A stretch of 63,192 nucleotides of DNA, the filler included, from Hausera hauseri (Eukaryota), in NCBI GenBank assembly GCA_046269625.1. It is 10 parts of 10 records of this genome, joined end to end, with 100 filler letters (N's around TTAATTAATTAA, not from the genome) between each part and the next. Parts side by side here need not be neighbours in the genome. Positions count along the whole stretch, not along the records: positions 23,720 to 28,262 come from JBJURY010534676.1; positions 28,363 to 35,145 come from JBJURY010065773.1; 8 more parts are not named here. One strand, written 5' to 3'. This document shows, in pieces, positions 17,736-47,099 of the stretch (within the stretch, counting starts at the first letter, position 1; every line of letters begins with the position of its first letter). The position numbers and the translations under genes were made by a program. The notes beneath the pieces are model-generated. The model was not told the origin of the DNA. It worked only from the letters and a program-made list of their open reading frames with translations, and searched no databases.

Positions 17736-17764
17736 TGCATATTCGGATACATCGCAATGATTTA

Positions 17765-17930
17765 AGTCGAAAAAAATTTTGGACTGACCCAGTTCCGGAT
17801 ACCTGCATAATCGGACTCACCGCAATGTGTTGTGTCAAAATTTTTTTCGACTGACCCAGTTCCGGACACCTTATTACTCGGACTCACCGCAACGAGTTGA
17901 GTCGAACAAAATTTGGACTGACCCCCAGTA
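17765..17930. repeat. Tandem repeat, unit about 68 bp, about 2.4 copies
   Basis: GACTGACCCAGTTCCGGA...TCGGACTCACCGCAA repeated. Confidence 0.85.
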
Positions 17931-18795: not shown

Positions 18796-21700
18796 CCAAA
18801 CACATTCACTTGGAAATTTACAGTAGCCAATGTACGCACACCTATATTGGGTTCAGACTTTCTGTCCTACTACAATTTACTTGTAGATTGCAAACAATGT
18901 TCCTTAAAATGCGGAAATAATCTTAATCAAATTAGCAGCATTTAGGTGACTACCCCGGCGACCGCGTCCAGTAAGTCAATACTGAAGCAAACGACTTTCG
19001 ATTTAAATTATTTTATAATCATACTTTATACAGAAATTTTTACTACGGTGGCAAATGAGATATTGCCAACTGCGTGGTACCTATTACTAATATCACAGCT
19101 GCTAACGCAATTTTCAACACAAACATCCTGCACCAAATACCACCCAGTCACAACACTTCGTCTATAACTCACACTTCAACTGCATCTAGTAACGACGCAT
19201 CGATACTATCGGATAACTTCTTATCGTTGCCTTCTAATGTACAACAATACATTTCCTCTTCCTGCACGCGTCTGTTGCAGAAAGACAAATCATTCGTACC
19301 ACCTTAATCCACCTTCCATCACATAGTAACTTCACATCAGCGTCTAATCCGGCAAAAGTTACGCCCGCTATCGCCTCGACGCAGACAGGCAGTGGAGGCT
19401 GAGTTTCTCGACCTTGAAAAATCAGGCATAATCAGAAGATCAAAATCCCCATGGTCTTCACCACTACATGCGGTTCCAGAAAAAAGATGGCACCTTTCGG
19501 CCATGCGGTGATTACTGCCAACTTAACACCATAACAACAATGGATGCCTACCCTCTACCATTAATCAACAATATCCTTCACAGGTTCCATGGTGCGACTA
19601 TCTTTTCCTGCATTGGTTTACAGAAAGCATACCACCAAATTCCAGTGGCTTCAACAGACATTCCGAAAACGGCTGTCATTACACCTTTCGGCCTTTTCGA
19701 ATACCTCTTCATGCCTTTTGGACTCCGTAACGTTTTTCAGATTTTCCAAAGGCATATCCATACAGTCCTATCAGGCTTAGACTTTGCCTATCAGTATATT
19801 GATGATATCTTAATTGCAACATCTTCCTCCAAACATCACTCTGAACACTTACGTTTAATCTTCCAGCGCTTACACCAAAACAATTTTCAAATTAATTTCT
19901 CCAAATGCTCTTTCTTTCAACTTAAGGTCAACTTCCCAGGACATGATATTAGCTCCTCCGGACATTCGCCTTAGCCAGACTGCATCACACAGCTGAAAAA
20001 CATACAACTACCCCGTACATAAACAGAGATGTGTTTTTTCCTAGGAACCCTGCACTTTATTCATAAGTACATTCCATAATGCTTCAATTTAACCGCTCCA
20101 TTTGCATCAGTAAGCTCTGACAAGAAGAAACAACCTATTCACTGGACCTTCCAGCTAGTCAACACTTTCGATTGCCTCAAAGATAATCTAAAAACCGTAG
20201 AAATTTTGGCCTATTCAGACTCCCGTGCAGAACTTCTCTTAACCACGGACGCATCCACAACAGCCGCAGGTGCTGTCCTCCATCAAGTCAAAAATGGATC
20301 CCATGAACTATTAGAATTCTTTTCTCGGAAATTCACGGCACAATAGAAAGATATTCCACCTTTGACCGAGAATTGCTTGCAATGGTCCTTACCGTGAAAC
20401 ACTTTAAACATTTACTAACTGCACGAACTTTTACAATACAAACGGACCACAAGCCTTTGCTTCAAATTCTGACTATGAAATTGCCTTTTCTACGTCAGGA
20501 GAGGCAAATATCCTATTTGTCCACATTAAATTTTGCAATTAAGCACTTAAATAGAGTCGACAATTTAGTAGGTGACTTCTTGTCCCGATCGATCAGCTCG
20601 ATTGATTTCACACCAATTTTTACTCAATCCAAACTTCAGCAAAACCAGCCACCTCCTGACATCCTTAAATCTTTAAGTCTTGCAAAATCATCGACGGCGT
20701 GGCTTTTGACACCTCCAAACCTAACAATCCTAAGATCATCCTCCCTGAATCGCTTCAAAAACAAGCGTTCAATAGCATTCATTCGTTGCATCATCCTGGT
20801 GCCAAGGCTACTTTTCGTCTCTTACAACGCCAAGTAGCATTGCCGTCGATGCGCTTTGACGTGCAGACATGGGTTATGCAATGTGTGGTATGCCAAAATT
20901 ACAAAAGTACTAAGCACCTAAACCACCACTATTTCATTTTACCTGAACGTCTCGTTTCGAATCTGAGCACATTGACCTCATAGGCCCACTACCTTTAGAC
21001 AACGGCGATCAGTTCATCTTTACAATGATGGGCCGTTCCTCGCGATGGCCAGAGGGCGTCTCACTTCGGCGCACCAACACAGAAACTATCGCAGACGTTT
21101 TCATCCGCACTTTGATCAGCAGGTTTGGATCACTTCGCCACATCCTTTCGGACTAAGGTCCACAGTTCAAATCCAACCTGTTTAAAGCTCTTGTCAATCG
21201 ATTGGAAATTAACCACATTCACACATCTCCATATCACCCCCAATCGAACAGCCTACTTGAACGCTTTCACCGAACAGTGAAAATGTCTCTTAAAATTCTT
21301 GCTGAGTCCAATCGCAGTTGGATTACACTCCTTCCGTACGTTCTGCTTGGCTGGGGGAACACACCATCTGCTTTTGCATGCTGTTCTCCTGCAGAAGCAT
21401 TATTTGGCACTTCCATCAGATCATTATTCAAGCTGACTTAGCTGGACAATACTCCTGCGGACAAAACCATACAAGCGGCACAGAGATACTTCGTTGAGAT
21501 CAGCAAAGACTCATTTTGCAAGTTGTTACACGCAAACAAACCCTACATACCCGACGATTTATATACTTCCAAGTTCCTTTGGCTAAAGAATCAGACGCCA
21601 TGTGGTTTTCAACCTCAGTATGACGGCCCTTACAAAGTAATTCGCTTACACTCCCACAACATCATCATTTTCATAGACGACAAAGAAGTAACCGTTCACA

Positions 21701-22787
21701 TCAATAATGCTAAGCCGGCCTTCTTCACTGACGATACGTCTCCCATCGAAGCCACTTCTCCACCAGCATCTTTACATGACACGCAGCAATCCAACAATTC
21801 ACCTTCCATCCCTGATCAATTTTCTAATCCACTCTTGCGTACGTTTTCGCCCAAAACTTCCACTTCAATTTCTTCTCACAATTCGGCCTCTTCTTGCCCA
21901 TCCGATGTTGTACCTTCAAGCCTTTTTAAACCTCTTTCATCCCCTCATAACCTGCTTACTCCTTTTACAGTACTTCCTCTATCAAACACCACTTCGACTT
22001 CACCAATCTTGCCATCCACCTCTTTCATCATTTCAGCCTCTTGCACACCACCTTCCTACTACTTTCCTTCGCCTTTTCCATCTTCCTGCTATCCTCCGTT
22101 TTGTACCTCTTCGCCGTCTTCTCTCTCTCCTTCTCTTTCCACACCTTCCTTATCTTCGGCGTATTCTTCACTCCTGTCTCCCTACACATCGTTTTCCAGC
22201 ACTTTCACTTCCGTTTCACAACTTCCTCCTCTCTTTGCTTCTATCCCTATTTCTTTTCCTCTCTCTACCAAGTACTTCCGTTTCATCTTCAACTTCCACT
22301 CTTTCACACAATTTCATTCCGGTTTCTACTTCAACTTCTTTCTCTCTTTTTTTATCCGCCACTACATTTTCAGTCATACTCCGTCTTCAACAATCTCTCT
22401 TTCTCCTTCACTCTCTCCTTCTGTCCATTCTGATTCATCTTCGCACGATATAACACTCACAACAAAATCCGACAATTTTTCCCCAACTTCAAACTCTGCA
22501 AGCAAACACACAGCATAAAGACAAAACAAGCAGAGTCACATTCAGCAAATATAGCAGTGAAAAATCACTAGAAGGCACCCAACGTCTTGTTCACACTAAG
22601 ACCAATTGACACACTTTTTATTTGGCGATTTTTTCTTTCTGTCTTCTTTAATCTTCATAATTTTCACTTTGCCACGGGGGGTGATGTGGTGCACACAGCG
22701 GCCGGTGCCCTTTGGCCCATTTGGTTGGGCACGGCCGGGCGTCAGTTGCCGGCGCGTCGGGTCCGATTTTCCGCCTCAAAAATTTCA
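18796..22787 (+). mobile_element. Degenerate Ty3/Gypsy element B (same family as A): PR end, RT, RH, IN, S/P-rich tail, PPT, start of 3' LTR
   Basis: PILGSDFL, FRPCGDY, YIDDIL, TDAS, HPGAKAT, YHPQSNSLLERFHRT, YDGPYKV. G-rich PPT at about 22674-22684, followed by TGTGG at 22685. Confidence 0.9.
21740..22500 (+). repeat. Pyrimidine-rich low-complexity tract downstream of the integrase GPY motif
   Basis: C/T-rich; encodes Ser/Pro/Thr in the integrase frame. Confidence 0.8.
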
Positions 22788-25249: not shown

Positions 25250-28100
25250 GAAGGTTAACCGAAATCAAACGTTTATTGTTGATACGAGTGGAATAAAACG
25301 ATCGCTAATTTAAAGGAAAAAGTAGCCGCAAAGTACTGCATGAAAACGAATGAGTTCATAATTATATGTCAAAACAAAAAAATAGAACGAAGACGAAACG
25401 TTATATGAGATTCCACATGGGACAACAATTTTTTAACAATCGTGCACTGCAAGGAGGAAGTACAAATGAAAGTGAAGAATTTGAGAACCGGTTATTGAGC
25501 AAAGGTGATTTAAAATATGAAGTAATGATCAAAAGAAACTCCTTGATTGATAAAAGATTGTCAGAGAATGAATTCAGAAAAAAAAATCAATGTTTAAAAT
25601 TTCAAGAAATTGTCAATAGCGATCAGCTCTTTAAAATTTTACATCAGAAAATTGACGAAAAAGGAAGAGTTGTCTGAATTAATTACCGAAGCGAGTACTA
25701 TCGAATCACAGAATGATTACATATTGAAAATGATCCAGGTGAGAAGTCTTGTGATGTTAGATGATCAAAAATGGAACATGAACATACATAATGAATATTT
25801 AGCACCAAGCTGAAACATATGGAACTCGCAAAGTTTGAAGAAAATGTTGCAGAATTTGAAAAATGGCGACATATTTTCAAAACTTGTGTCGAAAAACCAT
25901 CACTTTCTTCAATCGACAAACAGACCCAATTAGAAAACTGCCTGTGTGGCGAAGCGAAACGTTTGATTCGGAATTACGACCTCTCCCCAAGTTCCTACAA
26001 AACAGCGATTGAAACGTTGGGCCACTATTATGGTGATAACCAAATAAATTACGTTTCCCTCATGTCACAAGTCATGGAATTTCAAAAGATAGGCGTGCAT
26101 AATATAAAAGAAGTGGATTCCTTTACCATATTATTAGATTCGGTTATTGTGAGACTAAACATTTCAATCGAGAAACGGAATTAGAAGGCGGTTTATTATA
26201 CCCAATTTTTATTCAAAATCTACTTGAAGTGATGGTGAGGACTGGAACATTATCGCGAGGACAAAGACAAAAAACGGAATGTGCAGGATTTAAAGTCTTA
26301 GGTAGAAAAGAAGCCGAACTGAAATGCGTTGCTGCAGAAGGAGTCCTCAGAAATAATGCCTTAATGTCAAACAAATTTAAACAAGAACATTTAGAAAAAC
26401 CAGTAATAAGCTCACTGTTTACTAAGAAAATTGAAGAAAAACTGAAACCAACAAATAAATCTAACTATAACTATACGAAGGATGCGGGAGTGAACACAGA
26501 AATAGAAATGAATCAAACAGCTATGCTCGCTGGAAAGCAGAAACAAGAAATCAGCAAAGACCTTGCAAATACTTCCAGATAGGAAAATGTCGTCTTGATA
26601 AGTCATATACTTATCGACATGAAAAAGATCAAAATAACCATAAATGTACAAACCAAATAGCTTGTATATACTTTAAAAGTGGGAATTGTAAATATAGTAC
26701 AAATTTTCGATTCAGACACGAATTTTCTCCAGATTCCACTAAACTAGAAATTAATTATTGGAAAATTCCTAATGAGAAATTTAAAAATATTGAAATATCA
26801 AAATCATACTTAAGACATAATGAAATGGAGGTAACTTGTTTAATACGAACGGGGCAAAATCAGAACATAAAGATGGTTTCTGTCAAGTAAATGACTTCGA
26901 TATCTCAGAAAAACGACAAATATGGAGGACAATGTGTCTGATCTTTAAAACAGTGGCCTTGAGAACCATATCAGTATACTTAATCAACAGAAACCAAAGA
27001 ATTACAATGTTACTAGACGATGTTGGTACAGGTAGTTTTCTCAAAGAAAATATTGCACAGCAACTAAAACTCAATTGGAAAGATGTTACTGTAGCAGTGG
27101 TCAGAGAGGTGTAACAAAAACAAAAGATGACAAAAGTTCACATCCTATTACAAAGTCTAGACAATAACATTTGTGATTTGATGCACTGTCCGTGAAAAAA
27201 CCTACAGGAAATATGAACGCTACTGAATGGAATAAGAGCAAACTATATCAGTTTTCATAAAGCTATATAAGAAATTTCGGAAAAGTTACCAGAACCGATA
27301 GCCAGGTTAACTCCACTTGGTTGGACATGTGTCGGAATTTTGGATAAAAGAAAAAACAACTTAGTACGCAACAGCCTGGTACGAGCATATTGGAATAGGG
27401 CAAATGAAGTAAATGAAAACATAAAAATTACGAGAAATTGAGAATTTAACCGAAGAAAAGGAAACTTGGTTAAAGTTGGACAGAGAAATATTTCAAATTA
27501 CGAAAAATAAAATAAAGAAAACCGAAGACGGAATATACGAAATTTGTCTACTTCGGAAGGATAAAATAGAACACATACCAGAATCCAGATACATGACAAA
27601 GAAAAAGTCGAATATTTTGGAAAGAAATTAAGTTTTGATAGTTCATTGAAAATAATTGAAGATCGGATAAAAAGGATATGTAGAGCTTGCCGATCAAATA
27701 AAAGGTAAAACAAGTCATTGGTTACTACCACACTACTCTGTTCTGAAACAAGAAAGATCCACTACGAAAGTCAGAATAGTTTTTGATACAGCTGCAAAAG
27801 TAAAACAAAAAGTTTGTAGCTGAAATGTTCTTGTAAATTAGTATCTTATCATGTAATAGAACATTTGTACAGTTTGTACAGAAAAATGAAGAAAAACTTG
27901 AAACTTATCGGTTCACGAGGCTTGTATTTGGATTGAACGCCTCAACGTTTTAGCTCAACTCATGAGTCAAATTAATGCGGATACATTTGAAAATCAGTAC
28001 CCGCGAGCGATTGAAACCATTAGACAGTCAACATACATGGATGGCTGCATCGATTCCGTTGAGACGAAAATTAAACAATCGAATGATATCACTAATTAAA
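25250..28100 (+). mobile_element. Highly degenerate BEL/Pao LTR retrotransposon (Gag, protease, RT remnants)
   Basis: DUF1759-type Gag LAKFEENVAEFEKWRHIF...L.NCLCGEAK..YKTAIETL..YG; protease LLDDVGTGSF; ARLTPLGWTC; LPHYSVLKQERSTTKVRIVFD; STYMDGCID. Confidence 0.85.
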
Positions 28101-31100
28101 AGTGTTAGTATATCGATTCTCTACCGTCCCGACCTCAACCTCACTTGATGATTGTAAGAGAGTTATCCATAAAAGATTTATTATAAAAGTTTGCATAACA
28201 ATTATCTTCTTCACTCATTAAATTGTTCAATCTTCATTAATTCGGCTTGGGAGAGACTTGTTNNNNNNNNNNNNNNNNNNNNNNNNNNNNNNNNNNNNNN
28301 NNNNNNTTAATTAATTAANNNNNNNNNNNNNNNNNNNNNNNNNNNNNNNNNNNNNNNNNNNNCGAGTTACAATTCAGATAGGAATCAAGGTAGCTACCTA
28401 TCAACTAATAAATATACGGATAATGGAAGTAATAATAACAGATATGACGGAGATAATAAACAAATATCACAGAGTAAAAATAAGAATGTAAACAGATCAA
28501 AATCACCTGTGAATAAAGATGATTGACAAAGGATTGGCCGAAATGGGAATTTAATTTGTTTTACGTGTGGAAAAGAGGGACATAGCGCCAGGTCATGCCC
28601 AAATTCTAGAAGTCACATTTACTCAACCGAACAAAACAAGTATGATTAGAAATAACTTAGAAGCCATCTATGGTAAACGAGGTGATTAAGCATGATCATC
28701 GAAATGCAAGACCTGTGTAGGCCTGTAAGATACTTAGTTTAAACTACTAATCCTCAAGTCATAAAAGCTAGGGAAGAGTATGAAGAGAAACTACGGCTAA
28801 TGGAAGTCTGTCATGGGTTGAGAGAACCAGAAACTGAAAAGAATGGGCACTGGAGCAAAATAATACTAATATAGCGCGTAAAAGTCTATTCCCCAAGGGA
28901 TAGTCCAGTCAGAGAAACCAACAACATCTGAGAATGTAGATTTAGACGCAGAATCCGAAAAGTACCACCCAGATGAAAAAACAGATGAAATCGAAAGTGA
29001 ATTTATGGGACTATTAGTTCTCAAAATAACAAAAAATAAAGGTAGAAGCCCATCGCCTAAGAGAAAATCCAAGACTCGCTCAAGATTTCCAATAAAAAGG
29101 ACGCAGAAGAAAGAGGAGACTCCTATACCGTTATCCTAGGAGACGACTCACCTTTAGATACGCCATAAAGGACTTTAGAAACGTTGGAAACACCGGATAT
29201 AATAAACATTAATGACGAAATTAATGAAATTTGTCCGCTTCCAGCTAGTGAGGATGAAACGAAAGTTAGTAATGATTTCGACGCGAGAAAATGGAAGGTT
29301 CGATGTTCATGGAAGAACGCCGACGAACTAAAGAGAATAAGAATTATATGTCACGACCCAGAGATACTTCGACACAATTTAGAAAGACTTAAACAGATCA
29401 GTAAACAAACAGACATATCTGGTAAGGAACAACAATTTGCGGAGAAATTATACAAGAGCTTAAAATTATGGAGCGAAGGGAAGCTCGATGAAGCAATTGA
29501 CATAAGACAATCGGAAGAAATACCACGAAATACGTTAATAAAATGGAACCACGAATTAGAGTCGTGGATTAAAAGTGGAGTAGAATTTTCGGAAGGATGG
29601 AGTAATGACGAAGATAATATTAGCGTAAAAGTAGCTGAAGCGCAAACAATGCTATCTAGCTTAGAAGCTAATCCTAAGTTGAAGCGAACAGCCCGTAACT
29701 TAGAACGTAAGATGGACGAAATACGTTATATAATAAATCACCTTAGAGAAAAATCGGTTAGCAATCGAAGTCATATCGATTTAGAAATATTGGGTATAGA
29801 ACTGACAGACATTTCTCCCTTAATGGAGATGATAAAAAATTCCTTTGTCAAAAACAGTCGATGTGCGGACTTAGAGAGCCGCATCGAAATGGAGAATGAA
29901 AAAAGATTACAGATCAATACTTTAAGAAACCGAATTATGTTCCCAAGCCATGGGGAAACTTAATACGTAATAAAAGCTTGTATTGTAAAGACGAGTTTAG
30001 TTATGCCGGTCGAATTATGAACTTTCTAAGAGGGCCGGACGATGAATTAAAAGATGCACATAATATGTTAGATAAGGCTATAATGGCAGAACCAGTAATC
30101 GCAAACCAATTGTCGGAATGGTCCGAATTAGTAAACCGACTAAGAAAGTTAGTAGAAGACCGAAAAAAAGAATTTCCACAAAGCGAACCAACGGTAAAGA
30201 AGCAGCTAGAAGAAAGTGCACATGATCTAGGCACAATGCGACTGGAAATAGACATCTGTACCCAATTCGAAACATTAAGACGGTTAAAATTTATGAGAAG
30301 AGAACAAGAAACGTCGATATTGAAGGAGATCTATAAATTGATCGAAGAAACGAACTTCACGGAAAAACGGAACATGATTTACGATGTAACTTCAAAGTTG
30401 AAGGTTGCTGGACTCGAAGGAATCCAATACTTAACGGAAAACCAATCGACAAGATCTCTGCCCAAGGCATTAAAATCTTAGACATCTGTCCTGGACATCG
30501 AGATACGTTAACAGATGAAATAAAATTCTTGCATAGACCACAAGAATGGATGACCGGATCAGATCAGAATTTTCATACCAAGTTGACAAAAATAAGAGAT
30601 GACTCACATTTTAGCTTTTACAAACAAAAGTTCGCAAAGAAATTGTTGGATGCAATGGACCCCGACTCAAAAACTATAAATGAGATGTACGAATGGCGGA
30701 GATTAGTGACGAAAGAATGAGGCAATTAATGCCAAGATACAGAAAGTAGAAGAAACTTGCATTAAAACAAAACAAAGAGCAACAAGGTTGGATGAACTAA
30801 GGAACGAATTTGAAGTTTATCGGAACATATATCCTTTTACTGAGTCAGAGATAAAAAATAAACGAGAATTTGTACAAAGATGGCAAAGAGATGTGATTAT
30901 CGAACTAACTGATTACCATCAAAAGGGATTCATCGATTCTAATGAATTAAGCGAATTACTAAAAAGATTCAATACGCTTGCGGGAACGGAATAGGTTTCC
31001 GAACCACACAAATAAAAGAGATACAACCGAGATTGAAAGAAATTCGAGAAAATGTGCAAAAAACGAACACAGCTCTTGTAAACTATGGACTTCCAGATAT

Positions 31101-31408
31101 CAAGAATGAACCAGGATGGGATGCCTATTTAGAAGAAATAGCGGCTGAAAATCCGGTCACTTCGGTACATCTCGATGAAATACAAACGTATCCGCAGAAT
31201 AGGAAATTCAATGTAGAAATGCTCTTAGATTCAGCGTTAACTGAAAAAGATTTAATGGAATCAATTAATGTGAATATGACCGAAAATAAACTCAGGCAAC
31301 TTATTCCGATCTTAACTAAATTATCTAGCAAGAATACAATTTACAACATTGCCAAAACTTTTGATAAAGAAGTACGAAATTATTTTAAGAACTAAACCTG
31401 AGGTAGTG

Positions 31409-31630
31409 ATGAGAGTAGTGATATCATGCGACTGGATGGAAGAAAAAGAATTTGAGATAACTACTTATTCCTACGTAAAGGACGTAAGAGAATGGTTATT
31501 AAATAATAGCGAAACAAATGAGCTAAATTACAGATTTTATTTTAGAGGAAGAATACTTGATGATTTAGAGCAGTTAATAGATGTCGGAATTATTCCCGAC
31601 GAAACAAATCGGATAGTAGTAACAATAGCC
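31409..31630 (+). pseudogene. Ubiquitin-like domain inside the element C polyprotein (no terminal GG)
   Basis: MRVVISCDWMEEKEFEITTYSYVKDVREWLLNNSETNELNYRFYFRGRILDDLEQLIDVGIIPDETNRIVVTI follows the beta-grasp pattern (ubiquitin [21 protein letters not shown]). Confidence 0.75.
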
Positions 31631-32350
31631 AATGAACAGACGAAAGAAGAAGCCACGTGAAAGGCTAAAACGGAACAGTGTGTAGGACAAATCATGGGAG
31701 CGCGAGATGCAGCAATGTATTTCGAATATTTACAGACGGATGAAGACAAAGAACAATATGACAAGAATCTAGTACCTTTGAGCGGGATGCCAACTAATGC
31801 TCCAAGACAAAAACGCCCAGTCGGTAGATCGAGGAAGCCCCGAGAAGAAATCGATTATAACGGAGATCTGATTACAGAGTTAAGACAGATGTCCATTCCT
31901 ACTTTTTGTACAGATAATAAAGAATAAAGCGAGTTAATAAAAAATGTAATACGTATCGTAAATTATTCGAGTTTCAGCGGAGATACATTAGATGACAAAG
32001 AAAAGGCAATATTTAACGCAGCCAGAACAATGAGAAGTTCGAGTTTCAAACTGTCGAAAAGTAGTCTAACCGACGACGCAGTAGTTGAGAAAATTATAGT
32101 GGAGAATACGATAAAAGAGCTAAGAAAAGTATTATTGTATTTGACAATTAAGACAAATCCGAATCAAGAAAATGAACTAAATCGAGCTACGAGTTTGGCT
32201 CGAAAAGCATTTAGGAAACTTCCGTGTGAAGTAAATTGGACAAAATTGTTTGACAAAGAAGAAGACAAGAGGAATAGTAATAATGGACTAGGAGACATCA
32301 TGCGGAACTTGAGGATAACGGATAATAACAACCGAAAGAATGAATCTAAT

Positions 32351-34434
32351 TGGTTAATCAATTTGCTCACCATAATGATGTTGATAAAACAGATGGGCAC
32401 CGTCACCGTTCACGATTGCGATAAATTTAAGCTCGGCCAAAAATACTCATTAATGGATTTAGAAGCGTGCGAAGATGCCAGATCACATGAATTGGAGACT
32501 AAGGAGAAGAACTATTTTCTACACTAACAACAAAAGTTGATATCCTTGGATGGCATGGAATGTATGCTGAGACGATCTCGTAGCATTTTTCATTGTGGGC
32601 TAATGTACGGACACTCCTCAATAATTAAACCAACAACCCCTCCGATCCCAATGAATTTGGAAAGACAACATTGCAAGCAAGCTCGAGAAACCGGAAAACT
32701 GAAATGAGAAAGCCTAGAATTAGAAATGCCGCCCGGAAAAATAATCAGAGCGTATAAGATAGTAGCCGGAAGACTGGATATGCATAACGAGCACTGTAGT
32801 GGAACGGAATACGATACCGGAAAAGGATTGGAAGCAAACGTAATGGTAGTAGATTTTTACGAATCAGAAAAACAAGTCCAAAAAGTAATGTTTCATAGTG
32901 TCACTAAGCTATATACTGAGAATCAAAAATGCCACATGCAAGACGGAACTTGCGCTTTCCGAAGTTTTGACGTCATATGGGAACTGCCCACCGGAAAAGC
33001 TTGCAATTTTATTAAGATCAAAGAACTGAGATTTAATGAAACTACTGGAAAGCGATACGTAGACAAATTCGATATAAGTTCAAGAGCACGTGAAAATGTA
33101 TCAGAGTATCATACATCTACGATATTAATCTCTGATCAACACGGATTGAAATTCATAAAAAAGGAAATGATTTCAAGACGTGAAGTAGTAATGTTCACAA
33201 CTCATTAGGAAGCATTCTTCGTCGCGGAAACGGAGATAAACGCGAAAACATACAACCTGGAAACACAAGACATTCGAATCGAGGATTATCTGAAAAATAA
33301 AGACGATTATTTCTATTATAAAGTACAGGTTGGAATAGCAGAACTATACCATAAAATGATAACGAACGACTACAAATTTGATACGGAAATTATGAGGACA
33401 AAATTAGCTCTTATTTATGCGAACCCGGAATTAGCCTCACCAATTATTCCCATGAGAGAAGGAATTTTTGGTTGAGTTACTGGTGAAGTTCTACTGACAT
33501 ATGAATGCGACAAAAGAGACGTACTAATTAATGTCGAGGAAAAACGATGCATACAAAAACTTCCTGTGATCTACCAGAATACTCCGCGCTTAGCCATGCC
33601 TCTCACTAGAGTATTGCTAGACAACGCAATTCAACCTACCATATTAAAGGATTGCAAAGCAAGTTTGGGTGAATGAATGCTTAGGCGTAGCGAAACGGAT
33701 TGGGTTAGCTTAGCCAATGGAGGTGTCACTATTATTCAAAAAAACTAACTGGAACTAATTTAGCAAAAGGAATGAACGACGACAAGTTTCAGGATACATC
33801 TTAGAAAGGCATACATAGATTTAAAGAAATTGAAGCTTTTCGGCAATTTCTCGCTTTTCCACGACAGCGAACACACGAATTAAATCGGGCCATGGAATCA
33901 GTAGTAGATGATACTCGATACCAAGCGAAATGGGAATCCCTGCTTGGTGAAAACCATTACCAACGGGTAACCACAGAAATACTTTACAAAATATGGGGAA
34001 GATTTTTAATTTTTGGACAAGCGGCATCTGGATTTTTAGCAATCTATTTCATGGTACAACTAGTGAAGGCGGTAATCCAAGCGGTTATAAATGGGTATAA
34101 AATATGCACGCTAACAGGATTTTCTTGCAAGATCTTAATCGCAATTATCACACCGTTTGGCAAAATGCTTAAAGCATACGAAGAAAATCGATGGAAAAAT
34201 GACGTTGAACTCCATGTCGGCTACTATAATTATAAACGTCGAGCAAGACCCATATTTCGATTGAAACACAAGGCTAAGAAACCAATGACACGAACAAATA
34301 ACTCCGGTGATGACGAGCCTAAGGGAGGAGAAGCGATCCTCAGACAAAATAAACACAAAATGTACTCAGTAATTAGTGTACCCTTACCTATCATTCCGCC
34401 AACGGCTACGAGGATTGTGACAAAACATCTATGA
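32351..34434 (+). pseudogene. Chuvirus (Jingchuvirales)-type envelope glycoprotein with an internal signal peptide and C-terminal TM segments
   Basis: Reading through stops: WLINLLTIMML..VHDC..YSLMDLEAC..ECMLRRSRSIFHCG..HS..CKQARETG..AGRL..HCSGTEY..CHMQDGTC..IW..ACNF..GIFG*VTGEVLLTYEC..CIQKLPV..PLTRVL..IWGRFLIFGQAASGFLAIYFMVQLVKAVIQAVINGY. Confidence 0.85.
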
Positions 34435-34834
34435 TGTCATATAGATCGGCATTCTGTCAGAAACCTTTCAGCTATGAAGATCCTTATGAAGGAAGAAAGC
34501 AATATGGAATCTTAAAGAAAATGCAATTCACTAAGCAATGACGAGCGGAAGACGACCACAGGATATTGTACTCACCGAGGATATCTCGGAATATAGAAAC
34601 AAGATCAACAGTCTGGGGAATGTAAGGAGTGAAATCGTTCCAAAATCCAATAGTACAAGAACTATTAATCAGAAATAATGCAAATAACATGGCAGTTAAC
34701 GACTTATACCCCAACAAAGAACTGAAACAGCTGAGTGAAAATATTATTTCATCACCAGAGATAACGATAAACGGACATGAAAATTTTTCGATTAAACGAC
34801 CGAAGGACGTGTCGAGCTGTTATGGGTCAGTTAT

Positions 34835-35145
34835 GGAAGGAAGACCCTTTACAAAAGTTACTATCGAAGATTGGGAAATCTATGCCTTAAAAGACACTGG
34901 ATCGGAGAAATCGTTTATCAAATTAGAATCAATACCACCGACACTCCGAAAACAACTGCAGCTAGAATCATCAGCAGACCCAGGCAGCATAGGAGCCTTC
35001 AGGCAAGAATCCAAACCAAAATTTAAATGGAGTCCTTTAGTCCAGTTAATGGGTCAAATTCTACTACGCGAGTTTGCCATAATGGATCAATTAACCGACG
35101 ATGTAGTGCTAGGTTGCGACATACTGAAACAATTACCCAATATCG
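34835..35145 (+). pseudogene. Retropepsin aspartic protease of element C
   Basis: GRPFTKVTIEDWEIYALKDTGSEKSFI...DDVVLGCDIL. Confidence 0.85.
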
Positions 35146-35245: not shown

Positions 35246-36691
35246 ACTCCTACTAATAATTCCGACCTTCTTCGTCGTTATTTTCTGTCTTCCCTGCCAA
35301 CATCCATTCGAGCTCTACTTACAGTAGTTGATGAGTCTACACCCATTGAAAAACTTGCACTACTAGCGGATAAGAGTTTCGACATTCTTCAATCCAACAG
35401 TTCACAGCCAGTAGCAGCATCGTCCATATCCAAGCCTCCAGAAATACCATCCACCGAGTCACAGGAGCAGACTCCCTCAACCTCGAAAATCCAACAGCAG
35501 TTTTTGAAACCAATGGATGTTCCGTCATATTCTCCAACAGCAAACACGCTCTTGAATGATGTGTCGCCAGCAGTTCCTTATGAACTTTACAAGGACTTTC
35601 TAGACCCAATATCCGAAGCCCTAGACATCATTTACCATTCTATTAATGAAGAACATCTGTCTACTCCCAACAAAACAAGCATCATCGATCAACTAAACTT
35701 TATTCGAAATAAAGTAACAGAAAAAGCGATTCAACACGCAGCATACTTGACCTCATTTAATATTTTGCAGGTCACAATATCGAAGAAACTGGATCATATA
35801 CCATTAACGAAAGAGACAGTATCATCGAGCGCAGTAACAACCGTTCCAGTTCCATCCCCAGTTCCATCTTCACAACCCACCAAGCCGTATGCAGCAATAG
35901 TGAAAGAGTCTGCCTCGGCCCGCCCACCCCAGCAACAGACGTTGATTATAAAATCCACGCTTTCTAAACCTCTAGAAGCGACGAAAAAATGCGTGGAACG
36001 GACTCTTCACAAAGAGCGCTTACTCGTTGAAAGAGTAGATTTCACAAAACAAGGAACAATTCTAGTACACAGCAGTGATCCTGAAATACTAAGACAATTA
36101 GAAACTCATTTAAAATCAGATGTTTCCCAAAAGGATTTACAAATAACACGGAAAGGTCCAGCAACCGGAAAAATTATAGTCTTCAGCGTCCCGAACTATA
36201 CCCCAACGTCTGCCGTCCAAGACGCTATGGTTCACGCGTATCCAGATTACAGCCTGGAAGACGTAAAATTTGTTAAAGCCCCTCCAGGGCGGTTAGATTC
36301 AAAACATGTGGTGCTAGAAGTACCCTTGTCTTTACAACGACTCATCCTCTCAGAGAAAAACCAGGGCCGTCTTCTGGTCGGATTATCCCGTTGCTTAGTG
36401 AAAAGATACCATGTAATTTCACGCTGCTCTCACTGCCAGACAATTGGTCACCCAGCGACTCGTTGTCCCACTCTGGATCAACCCCCAATCTGTGGGAAAT
36501 GCATGTTGACACACTCCACAGACAAATGTGACATTTCCTCAACAAAGTATCAGTGTATTAACTGTACTCTAAGCAACAAAGAATTACAGACAAAATATTC
36601 TGTAAATCATCATACAGGAGACCGCACATGTAGAACATACCAAACAACTTCGAGGGCCTTGCGCCTTTCACTAGAGACAGTAAAAGCTTAA
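35246..36691 (+). CDS. Hybrid ORF1: Gypsy Gag C-terminal capsid segment fused in frame to LINE ORF1 with three zinc knuckles (5' end open at the contig edge)
   Basis: 86 stop-free codons from 35246 (TPTNNSDLLRRYFLSSLPTSIRALLTVVDESTPIEKLALLADKSFDILQSNSSQPVA...) run into ORF 35504..36691, which ends in CSHCQTIGHPATRC, CGKCMLTHSTDKC and CINC..H..C. Confidence 0.85.
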   Translation, partial: TPTNNSDLLRRYFLSSLPTSIRALLTVVDESTPIEKLALLADKSFDILQSNSSQPVAASSISKPPEIPSTESQEQTPSTSKIQQQFLKPMDVPSYSPTANTLLNDVSPAVPYELYKDFLDPISEALDIIYHSINEEHLSTPNKTSIIDQLNFIRNKVTEKAIQHAAYLTSFNILQVTISKKLDHIPLTKETVSSSAVTTVPVPSPVPSSQPTKPYAAIVKESASARPPQQQTLIIKSTLSKPLEATKKCVERTLHKERLLVERVDFTKQGTILVHSSDPEILRQLETHLKSDVSQKDLQITRKGPATGKIIVFSVPNYTPTSAVQDAMVHAYPDYSLEDVKFVKAPPGRLDSKHVVLEVPLSLQRLILSEKNQGRLLVGLSRCLVKRYHVISRCSHCQTIGHPATRCPTLDQPPICGKCMLTHSTDKCDISSTKYQCINCTLSNKELQTKYSVNHHTGDRTCRTYQTTSRALRLSLETVKA

Positions 36692-39600
36692 CATTCTTAT
36701 TAGGACAGTTAAACTTACAAAATAATCGTTCAGCTACATGTGCGGCAATTTCTTATTTTATACGTAAAAATTATTCTTTAGTGCTTCTGCAGGACGTCTA
36801 TCTGTTTCGGGGTCGCCCTTTAAGTTTACCCCTTCATTACCCTATATATTCTTCAACAAACCAAAAAGCCCACATCATAGTTTTAGACCCCAATATAAAG
36901 CATACCATCTCATTAAAAGCAGACAATGTAATTTTCATAAATATAACATTCGACTCAACAATTTGGAGTATTGGAACCCAGTACTCCCCTCCCTCAGGAG
37001 ACCTTTCGGCAGATTTGGCGTCCTGGAGTGGACCTTCTCGTTTAAGCAAGTTTTTGGTTTTTGGTGGTGATTTGAACGCCCATAGTCCCTTGTGGGGCTA
37101 TAATCACGAGGACTCCAGGGGTCGTTCATTGATTCATCATTTTCACAGACAAGGTCTGATCTGTTTGAATGATCCCTCGAGCCCTCCGACGTTCGAATTA
37201 CCCCACATTTTTGGATGGCCTGATGTTACCCTTTGCTCTTTAAATGTGTTTTCCCTCTTCTCTACATGGGAAGTTGATCGGGATCTCAATTTTGCTGATC
37301 ATCGTCTGATAACAGTAACTTTCCAGCAAACAATTACTTTACTTCGAAACGCCGTTTTCGCACAAAAGGAGTACCGTTGACCAAAGTCACAAACGCAATT
37401 CTTTCCGAAATAACCCCTTTACTACCTAAGCTAGCAACTAGCACAACACCTATTGAAGTAGACACTATAATTGAACAATTCGAGGAAAAGATACTTTCCC
37501 AAAGTAAACTTCATTTAAAACAAAAACGACAAAATTATCGTCCACAAGTAAAGTGGTGGTCACCGGCGCTCCGTGCGCAACGAAATAAACTCAGAGCTCT
37601 TTATCGGCGGACTAAATTTGACTCATCTTTAGAAATTCAAACACAATACAGACGTTTCAAAGCGGTCTACAAAAGATCGATACTTGAAGCAAAACGGAGA
37701 TCCTGGCAACAATTTTGTGAAGGAACGACCTCAGCTTTTGGTACGACGCAAAAGTTAGCTTTTGGCAAAAACTTGTCCTCCACAGAACTCCTAGCTCTCG
37801 ATAACTTGCCCCCAACAGAAGTCGTCTCTCGCCCCTTAACTCTAAAGTTTATCATCAACTCAATCTTTGGCACTGAAGGAATTCGTCCTTCTTCACTTCC
37901 CTCTTCTCTACCCTCAGTAGCTCCAACTCATCCACTTACGCATAATGAACTAAAAACTGCTATATTTTCTTTTAAAAAAACAAAAGCCCCAGGTCCAGAT
38001 CAGCTAGATCATATTTTATTACGATCCCTCTATTCCAAAAACCCAGATCTCTTCCATAATCTTTTCTCAAATCTATTCAATTTTAATTACTTTCCAACTT
38101 CCTGGAAAAAAGGGGAGGTCGTTCTTTTTCCTAAAAGGGGAAAGAGTCCAGCATTGGAGAGCTCTTATCGTCCAATAACACTTCTTCCAATTTTAGGCAA
38201 AATTTTAGAAAAAATAATACTAAATCGTATAGAATTTCACATTTTCCAAAACAATTCCTTTCATCAGAACCAATTTGGCTATAGCGATAGGAAGTCTACA
38301 GAATCAGCAATTATCACAGTAATAGACCTAATTCAAAAAGCCCGTGATTCGGCCAATTTTTCTTTAATCGTCTCAATAGACTTCAAAAATGCTTTTGATT
38401 CCCTTCCTTGGCCCCAGACTTTAAAGCTCCTCACTTCTTTAAATCTCCCTCAAGAGCTCTTTAATCTGGTTTCTTCTTTCTTGAAAAATCGTTCAGCGAT
38501 AGTGGATTGGACATCCCCCAAAAATTTAATTTATTTTACAAAAGGTTGTCCCCAAGGTTCTTGTCTGGGACCCTTCCTCTGGAAGCTTCTTTTAAATTCC
38601 TTACTTTCGACATTCACCCTAGTAAATTCAGAATTGATAGCATATGCAGACGACCTGCTTCTGGTGGCGTGGGGATCCACTCAGATCTCTCTGGAGACAA
38701 CAGCTACGAAAGCTCTCCAATTTATCGAAAACTGGGCAATAAATAATAACATCAAAATTTCTACAGAAAAGTGCCAAGCTGTAGTTTTTCCAAGGCACGG
38801 CCCAAGACCTCGAAACCAACCGAAGAAACATGCCTTTCACTGCAATAACATCCACATGAAAAGAAATCCCACATTAACAATCAACAATCAACGCATCCCA
38901 ATTAATCTGGAACTCTTATATCTTGGTGTAACCATTGACAAAAATCTTTCTTGGATACCACATTTACGGCAGAAAAAATCTCAAATTCAATTAATAATCC
39001 AAAACTTATTTAAATTCGCGGCAGTGAACGGTGGTGTTTCCACCACGATACTAAAGATCTGGTACAAAGCCATTCTTGAAAGAGTGGCTCTGTACGCCGC
39101 TGTTAGCTGGTCGTCTTCCCTCTCAAAAAAAGGTTTCGAGCTACTACAATCAATCCAACGGATGTGTCTCATTTTAATATCCAAAGCTTACAGGAAGACT
39201 TCCACTGCCGCGCTGCAAACCCTAACAGGAACTTTGCCAATCGATTTACAACTGAAAAAAGAATCTCTTTTGGCCACAGCGTATCGGTTTCGCAGAGACT
39301 GTCAGCTGGAGGACTTGCGGATTCGAGCTTCTTCTCTCGCAGAGAAACCATCAAAATGGACATTACCCCCTTATTCAAAATTACCTCTTTTGGATCCTTT
39401 ATCCCACCAAGAAAAACATTCCTCCTTAGAAATTTACACAGATGGCTCGAAGCTCCATTTAGGAACGGGAGCGGCCTTTTGTGTCTTCCAAAATAATGAA
39501 TTAATCCATTCAGAGAGTTCAACTCTGGGAGATCGGAATTCGATCTTTCAGGCAGAACTCTTTGCCATTAAACAAGCAACGTCTTGGTTTCACTCTTCTT

Positions 39601-40298
39601 CGTTCGAGTCTGCAACTCTTCTAACGGACAGTCGTTCAAGTTTGGAAATACTGCAAGATATTTACAATAAAAATCCAATAGCCCTAGAAATTTTGCAACT
39701 TATTCAAATTCTTGAGAAACCTCTCCACTTTCGCTGGGTGAAAGCCCATGTAAATGTAAGAGGGAATGAGTTAGCTGACACGCTGGCCAAATCTGCAGCT
39801 TCATCGACGACTCAGAACCGTCAGTGTCTTCCAGTTCCTCCTTCATTTATTAAAAAACTACTAAAAGAAAAAATCGAGCAGATCTGGCAGACCCGATGGT
39901 CCAACCCACAAACAAAGGGACGCTACACCTTCCAGTTCTTCCCTAAAGTCTCAACTGCCCTCACTCTCATACACCGAAATTTGTTTCTATTTTTTACCAA
40001 TCACGGTCCATTTAACGAATACTTATCAAAATTTAATAAAGCACCAAACACATATTGCATTTGTGGAGGAATCTCCAATTCTCAACACTACATCTTTGAT
40101 TGTCCCTTAACTTCACAATACCATATTCGCAAATCCTCTACCATTCCCCTCCCGAATTGGACTTCTCTCTTACTCACTCGACAAGACTTACAATATAAAA
40201 TAATAAATTGCATGAAATACATAGAGGACAATCAGTTAACATTTCAAAGTGTTAATCCTCCTCTTCCCTCTTCTGGCAGAGACTCTGACGGTTTCTGA
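36690..40298 (+). CDS. LINE ORF2 (APE-RT-RNase H-CCHC), R1/LOA-like, with a single frameshift near 37340
   Basis: QLNLQ, GGDLNAHSPLWG, FADHRLI; APGPD, YRPITLL, DFKNAFD, GCPQGSCLGP, YADD; IYTDGSK, QAEL, TDSRS, WVKAH..GNELAD; CICG..H..C. Confidence 0.93.
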
Positions 40299-41626: not shown

Positions 41627-42156
41627 TCGCGTGAAAGATCATGCTTCATGACTTTATCCAGCAGTTTCTCGATTGCCTTGAAGTAAGCCTCTGGGTCTGC
41701 ACCATTTATTCTGTACCCGGGCGCTTTTTTCAGGTCTTTGCAAAGCGTTGAGGATCGAGCGAAAGCCTTCCCTAGTCGTTTTAGATATGCAGTTATCTTC
41801 GCATCTATTGTCTCGTATCTTTCTGGTGCTTCTTCTTCCAAGACGCATTCAACCATGATTTCCCGTTTTGCCGCCAGGGTATTCATTTATTTAAAAAAAT
41901 TTTCACATCCTTTAATGAATTTCTCCACGTCGTGTCCATTCTTGAATTTGTTGGGCAACAATTGGTTCGCGAAAATGTCCATTGTGGCGTAAGTCGCCAT
42001 GTTGGCCATGGACTTATCTACGCCGTCCACATCGTTGTCCCGCTTAGGCATGGTTGGAAAATCTCCGCCCCCTGATATGTCCGCTAAAGTAAAATTTGAT
42101 TGTTTGTAGATATTCATTGCAAAGTTAACACCAGTTTTAGAAAATTTTATTGTCAC
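41627..42156 (-). pseudogene. N-terminal Gag-like fragment of another LTR element
   Basis: LLPNKFKNGHDVEKFIKGCENFF*..VLEEEAPERY..YLKRLGKAF has a retrotransposon capsid-NTD-like pattern. Confidence 0.5.
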
Positions 42157-42329
42157 TCAAAATACTTATTTGGAAACAAATTTTCCAAAATTCCAAATTT
42201 AAATCATACTTTATTGTAGCACATTTAAATTAAATTTTTAAAATTTAAAAATGTTTCTAATTTAAATCTAGAATTTTGGTTCTCGATTATATTCTCACTT
42301 AAATTACTCACGACACGCATGCATCAAAC

Positions 42330-42539
42330 AATTACGAATCTTCCTGGGTATATGTAATTGCTAAAGAAATATTATCAAAAAATGTGCGGTATACCCGGAA
42401 TAGTCGAATCACTATGCGGAAAAAGTAAAGAAAAACTCGTTTGGTCGGATAACCACGAAAAATCATTTGAAGAGTTGAAACAAGCATTAACCGACACATC
42501 GGTATTGGCATATCCAAACTCTAACAAAGAATTTATACT
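42330..42539 (+). pseudogene. Gypsy RT thumb/RNase H junction fragment, interrupted by the LTR of element D
   Basis: FLGICN..KLVWSDNHEKSFEELKQALTDTSVLAYPNSNKEFIL ends just before the expected TDAS. Confidence 0.8.
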
Positions 42540-43261
42540 TGTTAGTAGTTGAAGGTGGGCCTTGTCCAACACCCAACTATAACAATTCGTGAATTCAAAT
42601 TTAAGATAGTTTTAATTAAGCAGATAAGTTCTAACGTTCTCGTTAGAATGTTTGCACTATTTTAACTTGCAGGTACTGCGTGCGGTGAATGCGTAAATTA
42701 CAAAACTCTAGTCTTAACTATAGATTTTAGACAAAAGATTTTATACCCTAGTGTCGTGCTAGTCCCTCTTAAAGAGCGACGGAAAACTATAGCAATTTTA
42801 AAATACAATATATATTTGAAAACACAATAAAAATACCACACCGATTGAATACAGTTTCAAATTAAATCGTCAACAAGAGTAATACGTCTTCGAATTAACT
42901 GAATACTCTGAAATCGCTTTGCTAATCGTTCACTGAATTTTTCGCCTTTCTACTTGTTCGATCTAATGATCTAAGCACTGCTTTATATACTAGCGGATTT
43001 TCTATTTACAATTTGATAATTCGTTTTCTCGAATTTCCGATAACTTTTACAAATAAACATTCAATTTATTTCATTATACCAATGATATAATCAACTATAT
43101 TCTGTACATAAACTAATTAATTCAAGCTTTATACTTGTAAACATCCACATAAATTAATTCATTTAAGCCTCGATTATTTACATAACAATTAATCATTGTA
43201 CATCCGTTATAATTTCGATTATGTACATACTCACGTCTGGTAGTAGTTGTACTTTACGACA
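42540..43261 (-). repeat. 3' LTR of element D (about 720 bp, TG...CA)
   Basis: Minus strand starts TGTCGTAAAG right after the PPT GGGAGGAGAAA (43262-43272) and ends ...ACTAACA at the break in the host RT. TATA-like GTATATAAAG at about 42981-42990. Confidence 0.75.
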
Positions 43262-43271
43262 TTTCTCCTCC

Positions 43272-44225
43272 CTAAACGGCACTCTCAAATGTGCCCATTG
43301 CGTCAGTTGAGGTGCCGGGAATTTGTTGTAATCGTTCCATTCGTCCGCGTAAGTCCGCTTCCGAATCTATTTCGTTTGATGGGGATCGCGAGTCAATATG
43401 ATAGGATGTATTGGCCTGTTCGGGGACTATCTCTATTATTTTCTTATTTTCTCCGTTCGAATAATATCTCAGCCTTGTAGCCTCGGCTCTGCATACCGGG
43501 CAGGTCGTCTTCCCATTTTTCAGGGTCCACGTTTCTAAGCAGTATCGGCAGTACTTGTGACTGCAATCTTTATTATCTAGGACTACGAATCCTTGGTATA
43601 GGTCCGCATCGCAAACGGGACATTCTTCTTTTTCAGCAGCATCAATGTCCACAAGATTCTCGTCCACTTCTATTCTTTCAAACACGAGTCCTTTTCTGTC
43701 TTGGTACAAATATCCGTACAATCTCTTTTGATTGGGGTCTATTGAACTTTTTCTTGGATCGTCAGATACTGCTACTAGGGTCCATTCTACTATTTCTTGT
43801 TTGTCCAGATCGGGTATTCCAGTTTTCTTATATTGTCTTTTTAACTGAATTCTGACTTGGGTGTCCACGGGAATTGTTAACCTGTTAGTGCCACTTTTTG
43901 ATTGAAATATTGGGGCTAGGTATCTGCCTATGGTGTGATCTTCTCTGGCATATCCGTTTCCACTCACTATTCTTCTTGGAACGGTGGACACGTAAAATAC
44001 AGCCTCTTTGATTTTTCCTCTGCTGTAATATTCGGCCATAACGAGGATTTTCTTGTACTCTTTCACTTCGCCGAATTCTGTAACTATGATCGGGGTATCT
44101 TCCTCCCAGTTCTTCCTGAGAACGTTAACTTCTGACTTAAGAGATTTGGATTTCGTAATTTCCAACGGTTTTCCACTGTCCTCTTTCCTTTTCTCTCGAC
44201 TTAATATTCCTTTCTGATTATTCAT
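43272..44225 (-). CDS. C3HC4 RING-finger protein, C-terminal part of element D ORF3
   Basis: CPVC-x14-CSHKYCRYC-x12-CPVCR. The stop codon overlaps the PPT. Confidence 0.85.
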   Translation of the reverse strand: MNNQKGILSREKRKEDSGKPLEITKSKSLKSEVNVLRKNWEEDTPIIVTEFGEVKEYKKILVMAEYYSRGKIKEAVFYVSTVPRRIVSGNGYAREDHTIGRYLAPIFQSKSGTNRLTIPVDTQVRIQLKRQYKKTGIPDLDKQEIVEWTLVAVSDDPRKSSIDPNQKRLYGYLYQDRKGLVFERIEVDENLVDIDAAEKEECPVCDADLYQGFVVLDNKDCSHKYCRYCLETWTLKNGKTTCPVCRAEATRLRYYSNGENKKIIEIVPEQANTSYHIDSRSPSNEIDSEADLRGRMERLQQIPGTSTDAMGTFESAV

Positions 44226-47090: not shown

Positions 47091-47099
47091 ACGATGCCT

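What the first reader, a model, noticed from the sequence alone, without database searches (positions are those of the whole stretch)
28557..35145. Chuvirus-type envelope gene located between Gag and protease
Seen: order is CCHC knuckle (28557), long unknown region, UBL, internal signal peptide (32351), a glycoprotein with the Cys pattern and C-terminal TM motifs of chuvirus G proteins, then the DTG protease (about 34890). Positions 31349 to about 33720 are one reading frame broken only by point stops, so the glycoprotein is part of a polyprotein rather than a separate ORF. Established: env genes of retroviruses and errantiviruses normally lie 3' of pol, and chuvirus-like glycoproteins are known to be captured by LTR elements. 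Inference: an infectious-type retroelement lineage with gag-X-env-pol order, in which signal peptidase and the TM segments would release Env and could return the downstream protease/Pol to the cytosol, as in RNA-virus polyproteins.
Basis: partly seen in the sequence, partly recalled or inferred. Interest (0 to 1): 0.82.

Follow-up and report, generated by a model that had tools for sequence, protein, structure and literature searches.

The report
Burro-like retrotransposon with internal envelope gene
This is a broken copy of a many-copy, retrovirus-like jumping gene of an unidentified animal whose viral-type envelope gene lies between its core and enzyme genes, all likely made as one long protein, a layout already described for the Burro elements of flatworms.

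Summary
The order is real. One 6,783-base contig (28363-35145) holds a zinc knuckle, a long unknown region, a ubiquitin-like domain, a signal peptide, a chuvirus/gB-type fusion glycoprotein (Pfam PF24664, E 9e-29) and a retroviral protease. This copy is decayed: about nine frame changes, so a single polyprotein is not shown here; 5 of 12 relatives carry knuckle, glycoprotein and protease in one open frame. I found no sign of nested insertion. The layout is published: planarian Burro/GYPSM1 elements read Gag, Ubi/SUMO-like, BCL-2, in-frame env, protease, RT (PMC6431247), and GAG-ENV-POL Ty3/gypsy elements are listed for nematodes, bryozoans and flatworms (PMC13524379). Likely mechanism: signal peptidase frees Env, one transmembrane helix returns protease and Pol to the cytosol, and the spent signal peptide may anchor the Bcl-2-like domain. 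Host, RT and LTRs are undetermined. Verdict: new member of a known kind, interest 0.33.

The parts
28557..28598 (+). CCHC zinc knuckle (Gag nucleocapsid end); the capsid part of Gag lies off the contig, which starts at 28363
   Evidence: Pfam zf-CCHC E 2e-6; sequence
28660..31350 (+). Region X, about 900 codons of decayed coding sequence with several frame changes; no family assigned
   Evidence: One frame is stop-poor in most 300-nt bins and A content is even; no Pfam hit at E<=0.05 in 6 of 6 frames; no atlas hit for 29169-29960
31352..31627 (+). Ubiquitin-like domain, shared with relatives at the same place
   Evidence: Profile of four relatives, E 1.9e-6; Pfam ubiquitin E 0.0094
31805..31840 (+). 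Basic G-R-x-R-K-P motif, AT-hook-like (label recalled); similar motifs in relatives P0005, P0009, P0010, P0015, P0155
   Evidence: Seen by eye; not tested statistically
31856..32278 (+). Probable divergent Bcl-2-like helical domain
   Evidence: Same position as the Bcl-2-like domain of five relatives; model pLDDT 59; top 19 rows of 48,161 chains are Bcl-2 folds, Z 6.5-4.9; sequence match not significant; Foldseek none
32351..32401 (+). Internal signal peptide, predicted
   Evidence: Hydrophobic core; small residues at -1 in 13 of 14 and at -3 in 13 of 14 homologous sites
32402..34020 (+). Fusion glycoprotein ectodomain of chuvirus/gB type; point stops and one frame change near 33740
   Evidence: PF24664 E 9.1e-29 and 1.7e-19; 12 of 14 conserved cysteine columns kept; 226 relatives at E<=0.001
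34021..34077 (+). Transmembrane helix of the glycoprotein, predicted stop-transfer
   Evidence: Hydrophobicity scans; homologous to the single strong segment of 12 relatives
34102..34158 (+). Second hydrophobic stretch, likely an amphipathic helix on the cytosolic side
   Evidence: Ties with the first segment in this copy, but weaker in 12 of 12 relatives scored
34836..35135 (+). Retroviral-type aspartic protease (D-T-G at 34893); the contig ends at 35145
   Evidence: PF00077 E 6.1e-5

Best explanation
The contig is a decayed internal piece of a multi-copy retrotransposon, likely of the Ty3/gypsy LTR group, with the domain order of the Burro elements (knuckle, unknown region, ubiquitin-like, probable Bcl-2-like, envelope, protease), which the active element likely made as one polyprotein. 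Inferred mechanism: Gag and the accessory domains fold in the cytosol; the internal signal peptide threads the glycoprotein into the ER and signal peptidase cuts behind it; one transmembrane helix stops transfer, so protease, RT and integrase return to the cytosol; the element's protease would then cut Gag, the accessory domains and Pol apart and trim the Env tail. The cleaved signal peptide would stay on the upstream piece as a C-terminal membrane anchor of the Bcl-2-like domain, which would damp host cell death. Shown: domain order, family multiplicity, single frame in relatives. Inferred: topology, processing, anchor. Untested: fusion activity, infectivity, anti-apoptotic activity.
For: Domain hits in order on one strand. 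Glycoprotein followed by an aspartic protease in the same open frame in 11 of 16 long relatives scanned, 5 of them with RT after it. Knuckle motif, glycoprotein and protease in one frame in 5 of 12 relatives; P0016 and P0007 run on to integrase. Locus L001 is a 3,426-codon open frame: Bcl-2-like, glycoprotein, three proteases, RT, RNase H, integrase. The ubiquitin-like domain is shared with relatives. Bcl-2-like domain in relatives: mutual recovery 4 of 4 in leave-one-out, 59 of the 60 PDB rows shown are Bcl-xL/Bcl-2, best E 0.0026, Pfam Bcl-2 in 4 of 5, best E 2.3e-5. Signal-peptidase pattern 13 of 14. Membrane segments come in pairs: L001 has a second pair (1583, 1753) before its last protease, P0155 likewise. 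Run X1 lays 18,564 contigs on all 30 bins, mostly under 95% alike; 7 of the 8 length differences listed fall at five places where this copy changes frame; the best-supported joints have depth under 17 against bin depths of 1,600-27,900. The published Burro order is the same.
Against: This copy changes frame about nine times, also between glycoprotein and protease, and one search lists no length difference there, so that junction is unresolved for this family. No RT, integrase or LTR on the contig. The window's Bcl-2-like segment is not significant by sequence (HMM E 0.29; hhalign probability 0.2%; 166 of 1000 and 48 of 500 shuffles reach its score), lacks the G-G of the BH2 motif, gave pLDDT 40 alone and 59 with the relatives' alignment, which can push it to their fold; Z under 8 is middling and Foldseek found nothing. 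The second hydrophobic stretch ties with the first in this copy. Several relatives (P0007, P0009, P0011, P0014, P0016) show no Bcl-2-like match. No Burro sequence was in hand, so common descent with Burro is untested. X1 may be the window's own source and no contig of it spans the stretch.
Confidence: 0.85

Rival explanations
1. Same single element and order, but Env and Pol are made from separate or frameshifted reading frames or from a spliced RNA, not as one polyprotein.
For: The frame differs between glycoprotein tail and protease in this copy and one search lists no length difference there; PMC13524379 speaks of GAG, ENV and POL ORFs and its text does not hold 'polyprotein' or 'in-frame'; predicted proteins P0005, P0008, P0010, P0155 start only 150-210 residues before the glycoprotein.
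Against: 11 of 16 relatives have glycoprotein and protease in one frame; 5 of 12 also the knuckle; Burro env is in frame; most other frame changes here coincide with length variants in the family.
Confidence: 0.1
2. Nested or chimeric assembly: knuckle, glycoprotein and protease come from different elements or a mis-join.
For: No single independent record spans the contig; region X has no homologue among the relatives.
Against: Same strand, even base composition (A 0.34-0.44 in 22 of 23 bins), no internal repeat, family coverage in 30 of 30 bins without strong joints, and the same order in distant relatives at about 30% identity.
Confidence: 0.03
3. A BEL/Pao element of the Anakin type, or a solo chuvirus glycoprotein insertion inside a retrotransposon.
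For: Chuvirus-like glycoproteins are known in mosquito Pao elements and as solo insertions (PMC7642597); a decayed BEL element lies on the neighbouring contig.
Against: The protease hits PF00077/PF13975; the relatives' Pol hits RT_RNaseH, Integrase_H2C2 and rve with no BEL-type family; the glycoprotein's 13 best hits (E<=1e-30) include long polyproteins of this order and it groups with them; the BEL contig is a separate contig.
Confidence: 0.02

Closest known systems
Burro / GYPSM1 giant gypsy-like LTR retrotransposons of planarians (as reviewed in PMC6431247, section 7; Jurka 2007 and Grohme 2018 seen only second-hand)
   Same: Gag with CCHC knuckles, Ubi2/SUMO-like, BCL-2-like, in-frame env with hits to mononegavirus fusion glycoproteins, then protease; very high copy number; decaying copies; relatives here reach 4,844 aa with ankyrin repeats (P0155).
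   Different: No MATH or other Pfam family found in region X; Bcl-2-like domain much diverged here; relatives carry one to several proteases (up to 7 stretches in P0155) and a second membrane protein after integrase, and showed no dUTPase hit in the Pfam scans; element size, LTRs, BIR and host not determinable here; sequence kinship with Burro untested.
GAG-ENV-POL errantiviruses with HSV/gB-type Env in Nematoda, Bryozoa and Platyhelminthes (PMC13524379; Sacco et al. 2022 seen only as cited there)
   Same: Ty3/gypsy-type element with a gB/chuvirus-type glycoprotein between gag and pol; ectodomain between a signal peptide and a transmembrane segment.
   Different: The eLife main text mentions no ubiquitin-like or Bcl-2 domain and reports several unrelated clades; which clade this one joins was not testable.
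Anakin (BEL/Pao with chuvirus glycoprotein, mosquitoes; PMC7642597)
   Same: Chuvirus-type glycoprotein carried by an LTR element.
   Different: Different superfamily (Pao); the passages seen describe no Gag-UBL-Bcl-2-Env-protease order.

Membership tests
Ty3/gypsy (Metaviridae) | RT phylogeny within Ty3/gypsy | not testable with these tools
   No RT on the contig, no genome held, no reference RT set in hand
Ty3/gypsy (Metaviridae) | PR-RT-RH-IN order with gypsy-type protease and H2C2 integrase | tested here: inconclusive
   Met in relatives P0005, P0007, P0014, P0016, P0155, L001; in the window only the protease is present
Ty3/gypsy (Metaviridae) | LTRs, primer-binding site, target-site duplication | not testable with these tools
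   The contig is internal to the element; no LTR-sized repeat on it or on L001
GAG-ENV-POL errantivirus, gB-type | gB/chuvirus-type glycoprotein | tested here: met
   PF24664 E 9.1e-29 and 1.7e-19
GAG-ENV-POL errantivirus, gB-type | env between gag and pol | tested here: met
   Knuckle 28557, glycoprotein 32360-34182, protease 34836; same in relatives
GAG-ENV-POL errantivirus, gB-type | Intact ORFs | tested here: not met
   This copy has many stops and about nine frame changes; it is a decayed copy, which does not bear on the family
Burro-like | Ubi2/SUMO-like domain between Gag and env | tested here: met
Burro-like | BCL-2-like domain directly before env | tested here: inconclusive
   Met in five relatives; in the window favoured by position and fold search but not by sequence
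Burro-like | env in frame with gag and pol in one very long ORF | tested here: inconclusive
   Met in relatives; not readable in this decayed copy
Burro-like | MATH, BIR, RING, ankyrin, dUTPase accessory domains | tested here: inconclusive
   No Pfam hit in region X, but frames are broken and the element is partial; ankyrin in relative P0155; RING on an unlinked contig
Burro-like | Total length over 30 kb; planarian host; RT kinship with Burro1-4 | not testable with these tools
   Partial contig, host not determined, no Burro sequence returned by any search
BEL/Pao (Anakin) | BEL-type Gag/protease/Pol families | tested here: not met
   No BEL-type Pfam family in the window piece or in 16 of 16 relatives scanned, whereas the neighbouring BEL contig does hit DUF1759

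The most novel reading that the evidence does not exclude
The ubiquitin-like / Bcl-2-like / signal peptide / class III Env cassette is not a planarian oddity but the mark of a wide lineage of enveloped gypsy elements in other animals, this host included, and the Env signal peptide does double duty: once cut, it is the membrane tail anchor of an element-encoded Bcl-2 that keeps the host cell alive while particles form.
Probability: 0.3. Interest if true: 0.62.

Novelty: new member of a known kind. Interest (0 to 1): 0.33.

Why it matters
The headline (env between gag and pol, in frame) is already in print, so this copy alone changes little. What adds value is that the Burro-type accessory cassette turns up in a divergent family (glycoprotein about 30% identical to its nearest relatives) and in several unnamed relatives, which suggests a broader lineage of retrovirus-like elements that carry their own cell-death regulator and use RNA-virus-style polyprotein topology. 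If the hosts are not planarians, it would extend Burro-like elements to other animals and give shorter, more tractable examples for testing topology and Bcl-2 function. I found no paper on such a cassette outside planarians, but the library lacks most subscription journals, Sacco 2022, Grohme 2018 and the Burro1 paper could not be read, and Repbase was not searchable.

Tried and rejected
No genome is held for the window, so RT, integrase and LTRs could not be recovered. Word-indexed protein searches gave nothing new: 0 hits for the ectodomain among longer proteins, only the query for the upstream region of P0015, only three input proteins for the Bcl-2-like profile. Viral contigs: 68 pattern matches, no relative. 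Atlas: no usable hit for the Bcl-2-like part of P0015 or for 29169-29960; blanks are not evidence. Single-sequence fold of 31856-32338 was unusable (pLDDT 40). Foldseek on the better model: no match at E<=0.001. No RNA holder listed; this says nothing on expression. Earlier-findings look-ups by place, words and sequence were empty, except. Host: the other contigs show an animal (talin, VPS13, mariner- and hAT-like remains) but no phylum could be fixed. Region X stays unassigned. Nested insertion and BEL/Anakin readings were considered and rejected (see rivals). Trees hold no named reference sequences and have long branches for the window rows; they show grouping only, not a donor or an order of events. 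The transmembrane scores use a hydrophobicity scale recalled from the literature with my own weighting, not a trained predictor.
Full report
Setting. The window is ten contigs of an animal assembly joined by N-spacers. The finding fills one contig, 28363-35145 (6,783 bases). No whole genome is held. The neighbouring contigs (a decayed BEL element, a LINE with RNase H) are not physically linked to it.

Observation. Pfam gives zf-CCHC at 28557 (E 2e-6), PF24664 Monjiviricetes_fusion over 32360-33634 (E 9.1e-29) and 33793-34182 (E 1.7e-19), and the retroviral aspartyl protease PF00077 over 34836-35135 (E 6.1e-5). The ubiquitin-like domain is weak in Pfam (E 0.0094) but matches a profile built only from four relatives at E 1.9e-6 in a six-frame search of the whole window (among those four, leave-one-out recovered two clearly, one weakly and one not). 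31349-33720 is one frame with 7 stops. The copy is decayed: the frame changes about nine times, the glycoprotein's membrane end is in a second frame, knuckle and protease in a third, and 2 of 14 conserved cysteine columns are lost. There is no LTR-like repeat on the contig.

One element, many copies. One frame is stop-poor in most 300-nt bins and the coding strand is evenly A-rich. The only run that holds the stretch (X1, 24% of sampled words; possibly the window's own source, so not independent) lays 18,564 contigs on 30 of 30 bins, 14,807 of them under 95% alike. The 15 best-supported joints shown (88 more not shown) have depth under 17 against bin depths of 1,617-27,873, and 7 of the 8 length differences listed lie at five places where this copy changes frame. 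That fits a large family of which this is a damaged copy. No contig spans the stretch, and none of the listed length differences lies between the glycoprotein tail and the protease.

Relatives. A full HMMER search with 31316-33763 gave 226 proteins at E<=0.001, 13 at E<=1e-30, about 30% identical, matched in or next to the glycoprotein. I scanned 16 long hits of the 150 listed: 16 of 16 hit PF24664, 11 of 16 carry an aspartic protease after it in the same open frame, 5 of 16 RT as well. A motif scan of 12 relatives found knuckle, glycoprotein and protease in one frame in 5 (P0007, P0009, P0011, P0016, P0020). P0016 runs from Gag to integrase in 2,146 aa; P0155 is 4,844 aa with 7 protease stretches and ankyrin repeats. 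One locus from metagenome contigs (L001, 1 of 186 pattern matches) has a 5'-open frame of 3,426 codons: Bcl-2-like, glycoprotein, three proteases, RT, RNase H, integrase, followed by a separate exonuclease ORF. The hosts of these records are unknown; 9 of the 10 looked up carry no name and one carries a bacterial-bin label. In a 23-row tree the window glycoprotein sits with the 12 polyprotein-borne ones and P0034, apart from nine other hits (94/86, long branch, no named references).

Five relatives (P0006, P0008, P0015, P0018, L001) have a helical domain ending in G-G-W, 50-80 residues before the glycoprotein start. The four tested recover each other in leave-one-out searches; their profile finds Bcl-xL/Bcl-2 in 59 of the 60 PDB rows shown, aligning BH1 and BH2 (best E 0.0026); Pfam Bcl-2 matches 4 of 5 (best E 2.3e-5; the scores shown lie under the curated cut-off). 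In the window, 31856-32278 takes the same place (W to glycoprotein start 58 residues) and aligns in register, but the match is not significant (E 0.29; hhalign 0.2%; 166 of 1000 and 48 of 500 shuffles as good). Folded alone it gave pLDDT 40; with the five relatives as alignment 59. Against 48,161 solved chains the top 19 rows are all Bcl-2-fold proteins (best Z 6.5, rmsd 3.9 A over 100 residues; first unrelated row Z 4.9), while Foldseek found nothing at E<=0.001. The alignment may have pushed the model, so I put the Bcl-2 fold in this copy at about 0.7.

How it likely works. Small residues stand at -1 in 13 of 14 and at -3 in 13 of 14 homologous sites three residues before the conserved x-D-C; the residue just before x-D-C is also small in 13 of 14, so the exact cut is open. 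After the ectodomain, 12 of 12 relatives scored have one clearly stronger hydrophobic segment and a weaker second one; in this copy the two tie (rough scale recalled from the literature). The first protease follows 138-381 residues later in the 10 relatives where it is present. Extra membrane segments before the last protease come as pairs in L001 and P0155, which would keep Pol in the cytosol. The model: cytosolic Gag and accessory domains, signal peptide in, signal peptidase cut, stop-transfer out, cytosolic protease and Pol, processing by the element's protease (inferred). Bcl-2 proteins are usually tail-anchored (general knowledge); here the cleaved signal peptide would end the upstream piece and could serve as that anchor (speculative). 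Fusion, infectivity and anti-apoptotic activity are untested.

What is known. [quoted passage not shown] PMC13524379 (outline, passages, first parts of sections 5 and 6, sections 14 and 22, rows of supplements 1 and 4; figures not seen) reports GAG-ENV-POL Ty3/gypsy elements with gB-type Env in Nematoda, Bryozoa and Platyhelminthes, in several clades, and cites Sacco et al. 2022 (not held; seen only as cited). PMC7642597 (passages) covers Anakin. PMC13465017 (passages) reports second-hand that Burro1 carries a BIR-RING module that protects stem cells from apoptosis. PMC5408684 (passages) gives precedent for exonuclease ORFs like that of L001. PMC12440569 (first part) gave background only. Unseen supplements and figures of PMC13524379, and Sacco 2022, may already cover accessory domains in non-planarian elements.

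Membership and verdict. It works like a Burro-type GAG-ENV-POL gypsy element: order, Env type and ubiquitin-like domain are met, the BCL-2 domain and the single ORF are met in relatives and open in this copy, and RT kinship, size, LTRs and host could not be tested. I file it as a new member of a known kind, confidence 0.85, interest 0.33. The boldest reading left open, a wide non-planarian lineage whose Env signal peptide anchors an element-encoded Bcl-2, has probability about 0.3 and would merit about 0.62.

Noticed in passing
window 43272-49244, minus strand (separate contig 41627-49244): Decayed gypsy Pol (RT end, RNase H, integrase), then a signal-peptide-like stretch, a beta-rich region and a transmembrane segment, further ORF remains and a RING finger. 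Its RT-RNase H is 39-44% identical to the Pol of seven relatives of the finding against 26-30% to the window's other two gypsy Pols, and it has a similar A-rich coding strand. It may be the 3' half of this family or a sister; no physical link is shown.
   Followed up: partly
window 7439-14872, plus strand: An intronless 2,477-codon open frame that joins pieces like a kinase domain, VPS13 and talin (FERM and rod). It may be a chimeric retrocopy or an assembly artefact.
   Followed up: partly
L001 2-10282 and 10617-12107: Two extra signal-peptide/transmembrane pairs (one between proteases, one after integrase) in the polyprotein, and a separate RNase_T-family exonuclease ORF downstream.
   Followed up: partly
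proteins P0155, P0009, P0006, P0005, P0010, P0020: Repeated aspartic protease domains within one polyprotein (up to 7 Pfam stretches in P0155, some after integrase), with ankyrin and C2H2 domains in P0155.
   Followed up: no
protein P0007 (accession HBK71150.1): A 2,627-aa retrotransposon polyprotein of this kind is labelled as a hypothetical protein of a Flavobacteriaceae metagenome bin, likely eukaryotic contamination of the bin.
   Followed up: no
window 35246-40298, plus strand: Near-intact LINE with an ORF1 bearing cysteine-histidine motifs and an ORF2 with RT and RNase H.
   Followed up: no
window 16377-17903 and 52507-53187: Two contigs share a 77-87% identical repeat of several hundred bases followed by TTCG-rich simple repeats, probably an unclassified interspersed repeat.
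   Followed up: no
window 25354-28260, 2756-6456 and 18800-22518: A decayed BEL/Pao element (DUF1759) and two ordinary gypsy fragments on other contigs.
   Followed up: no
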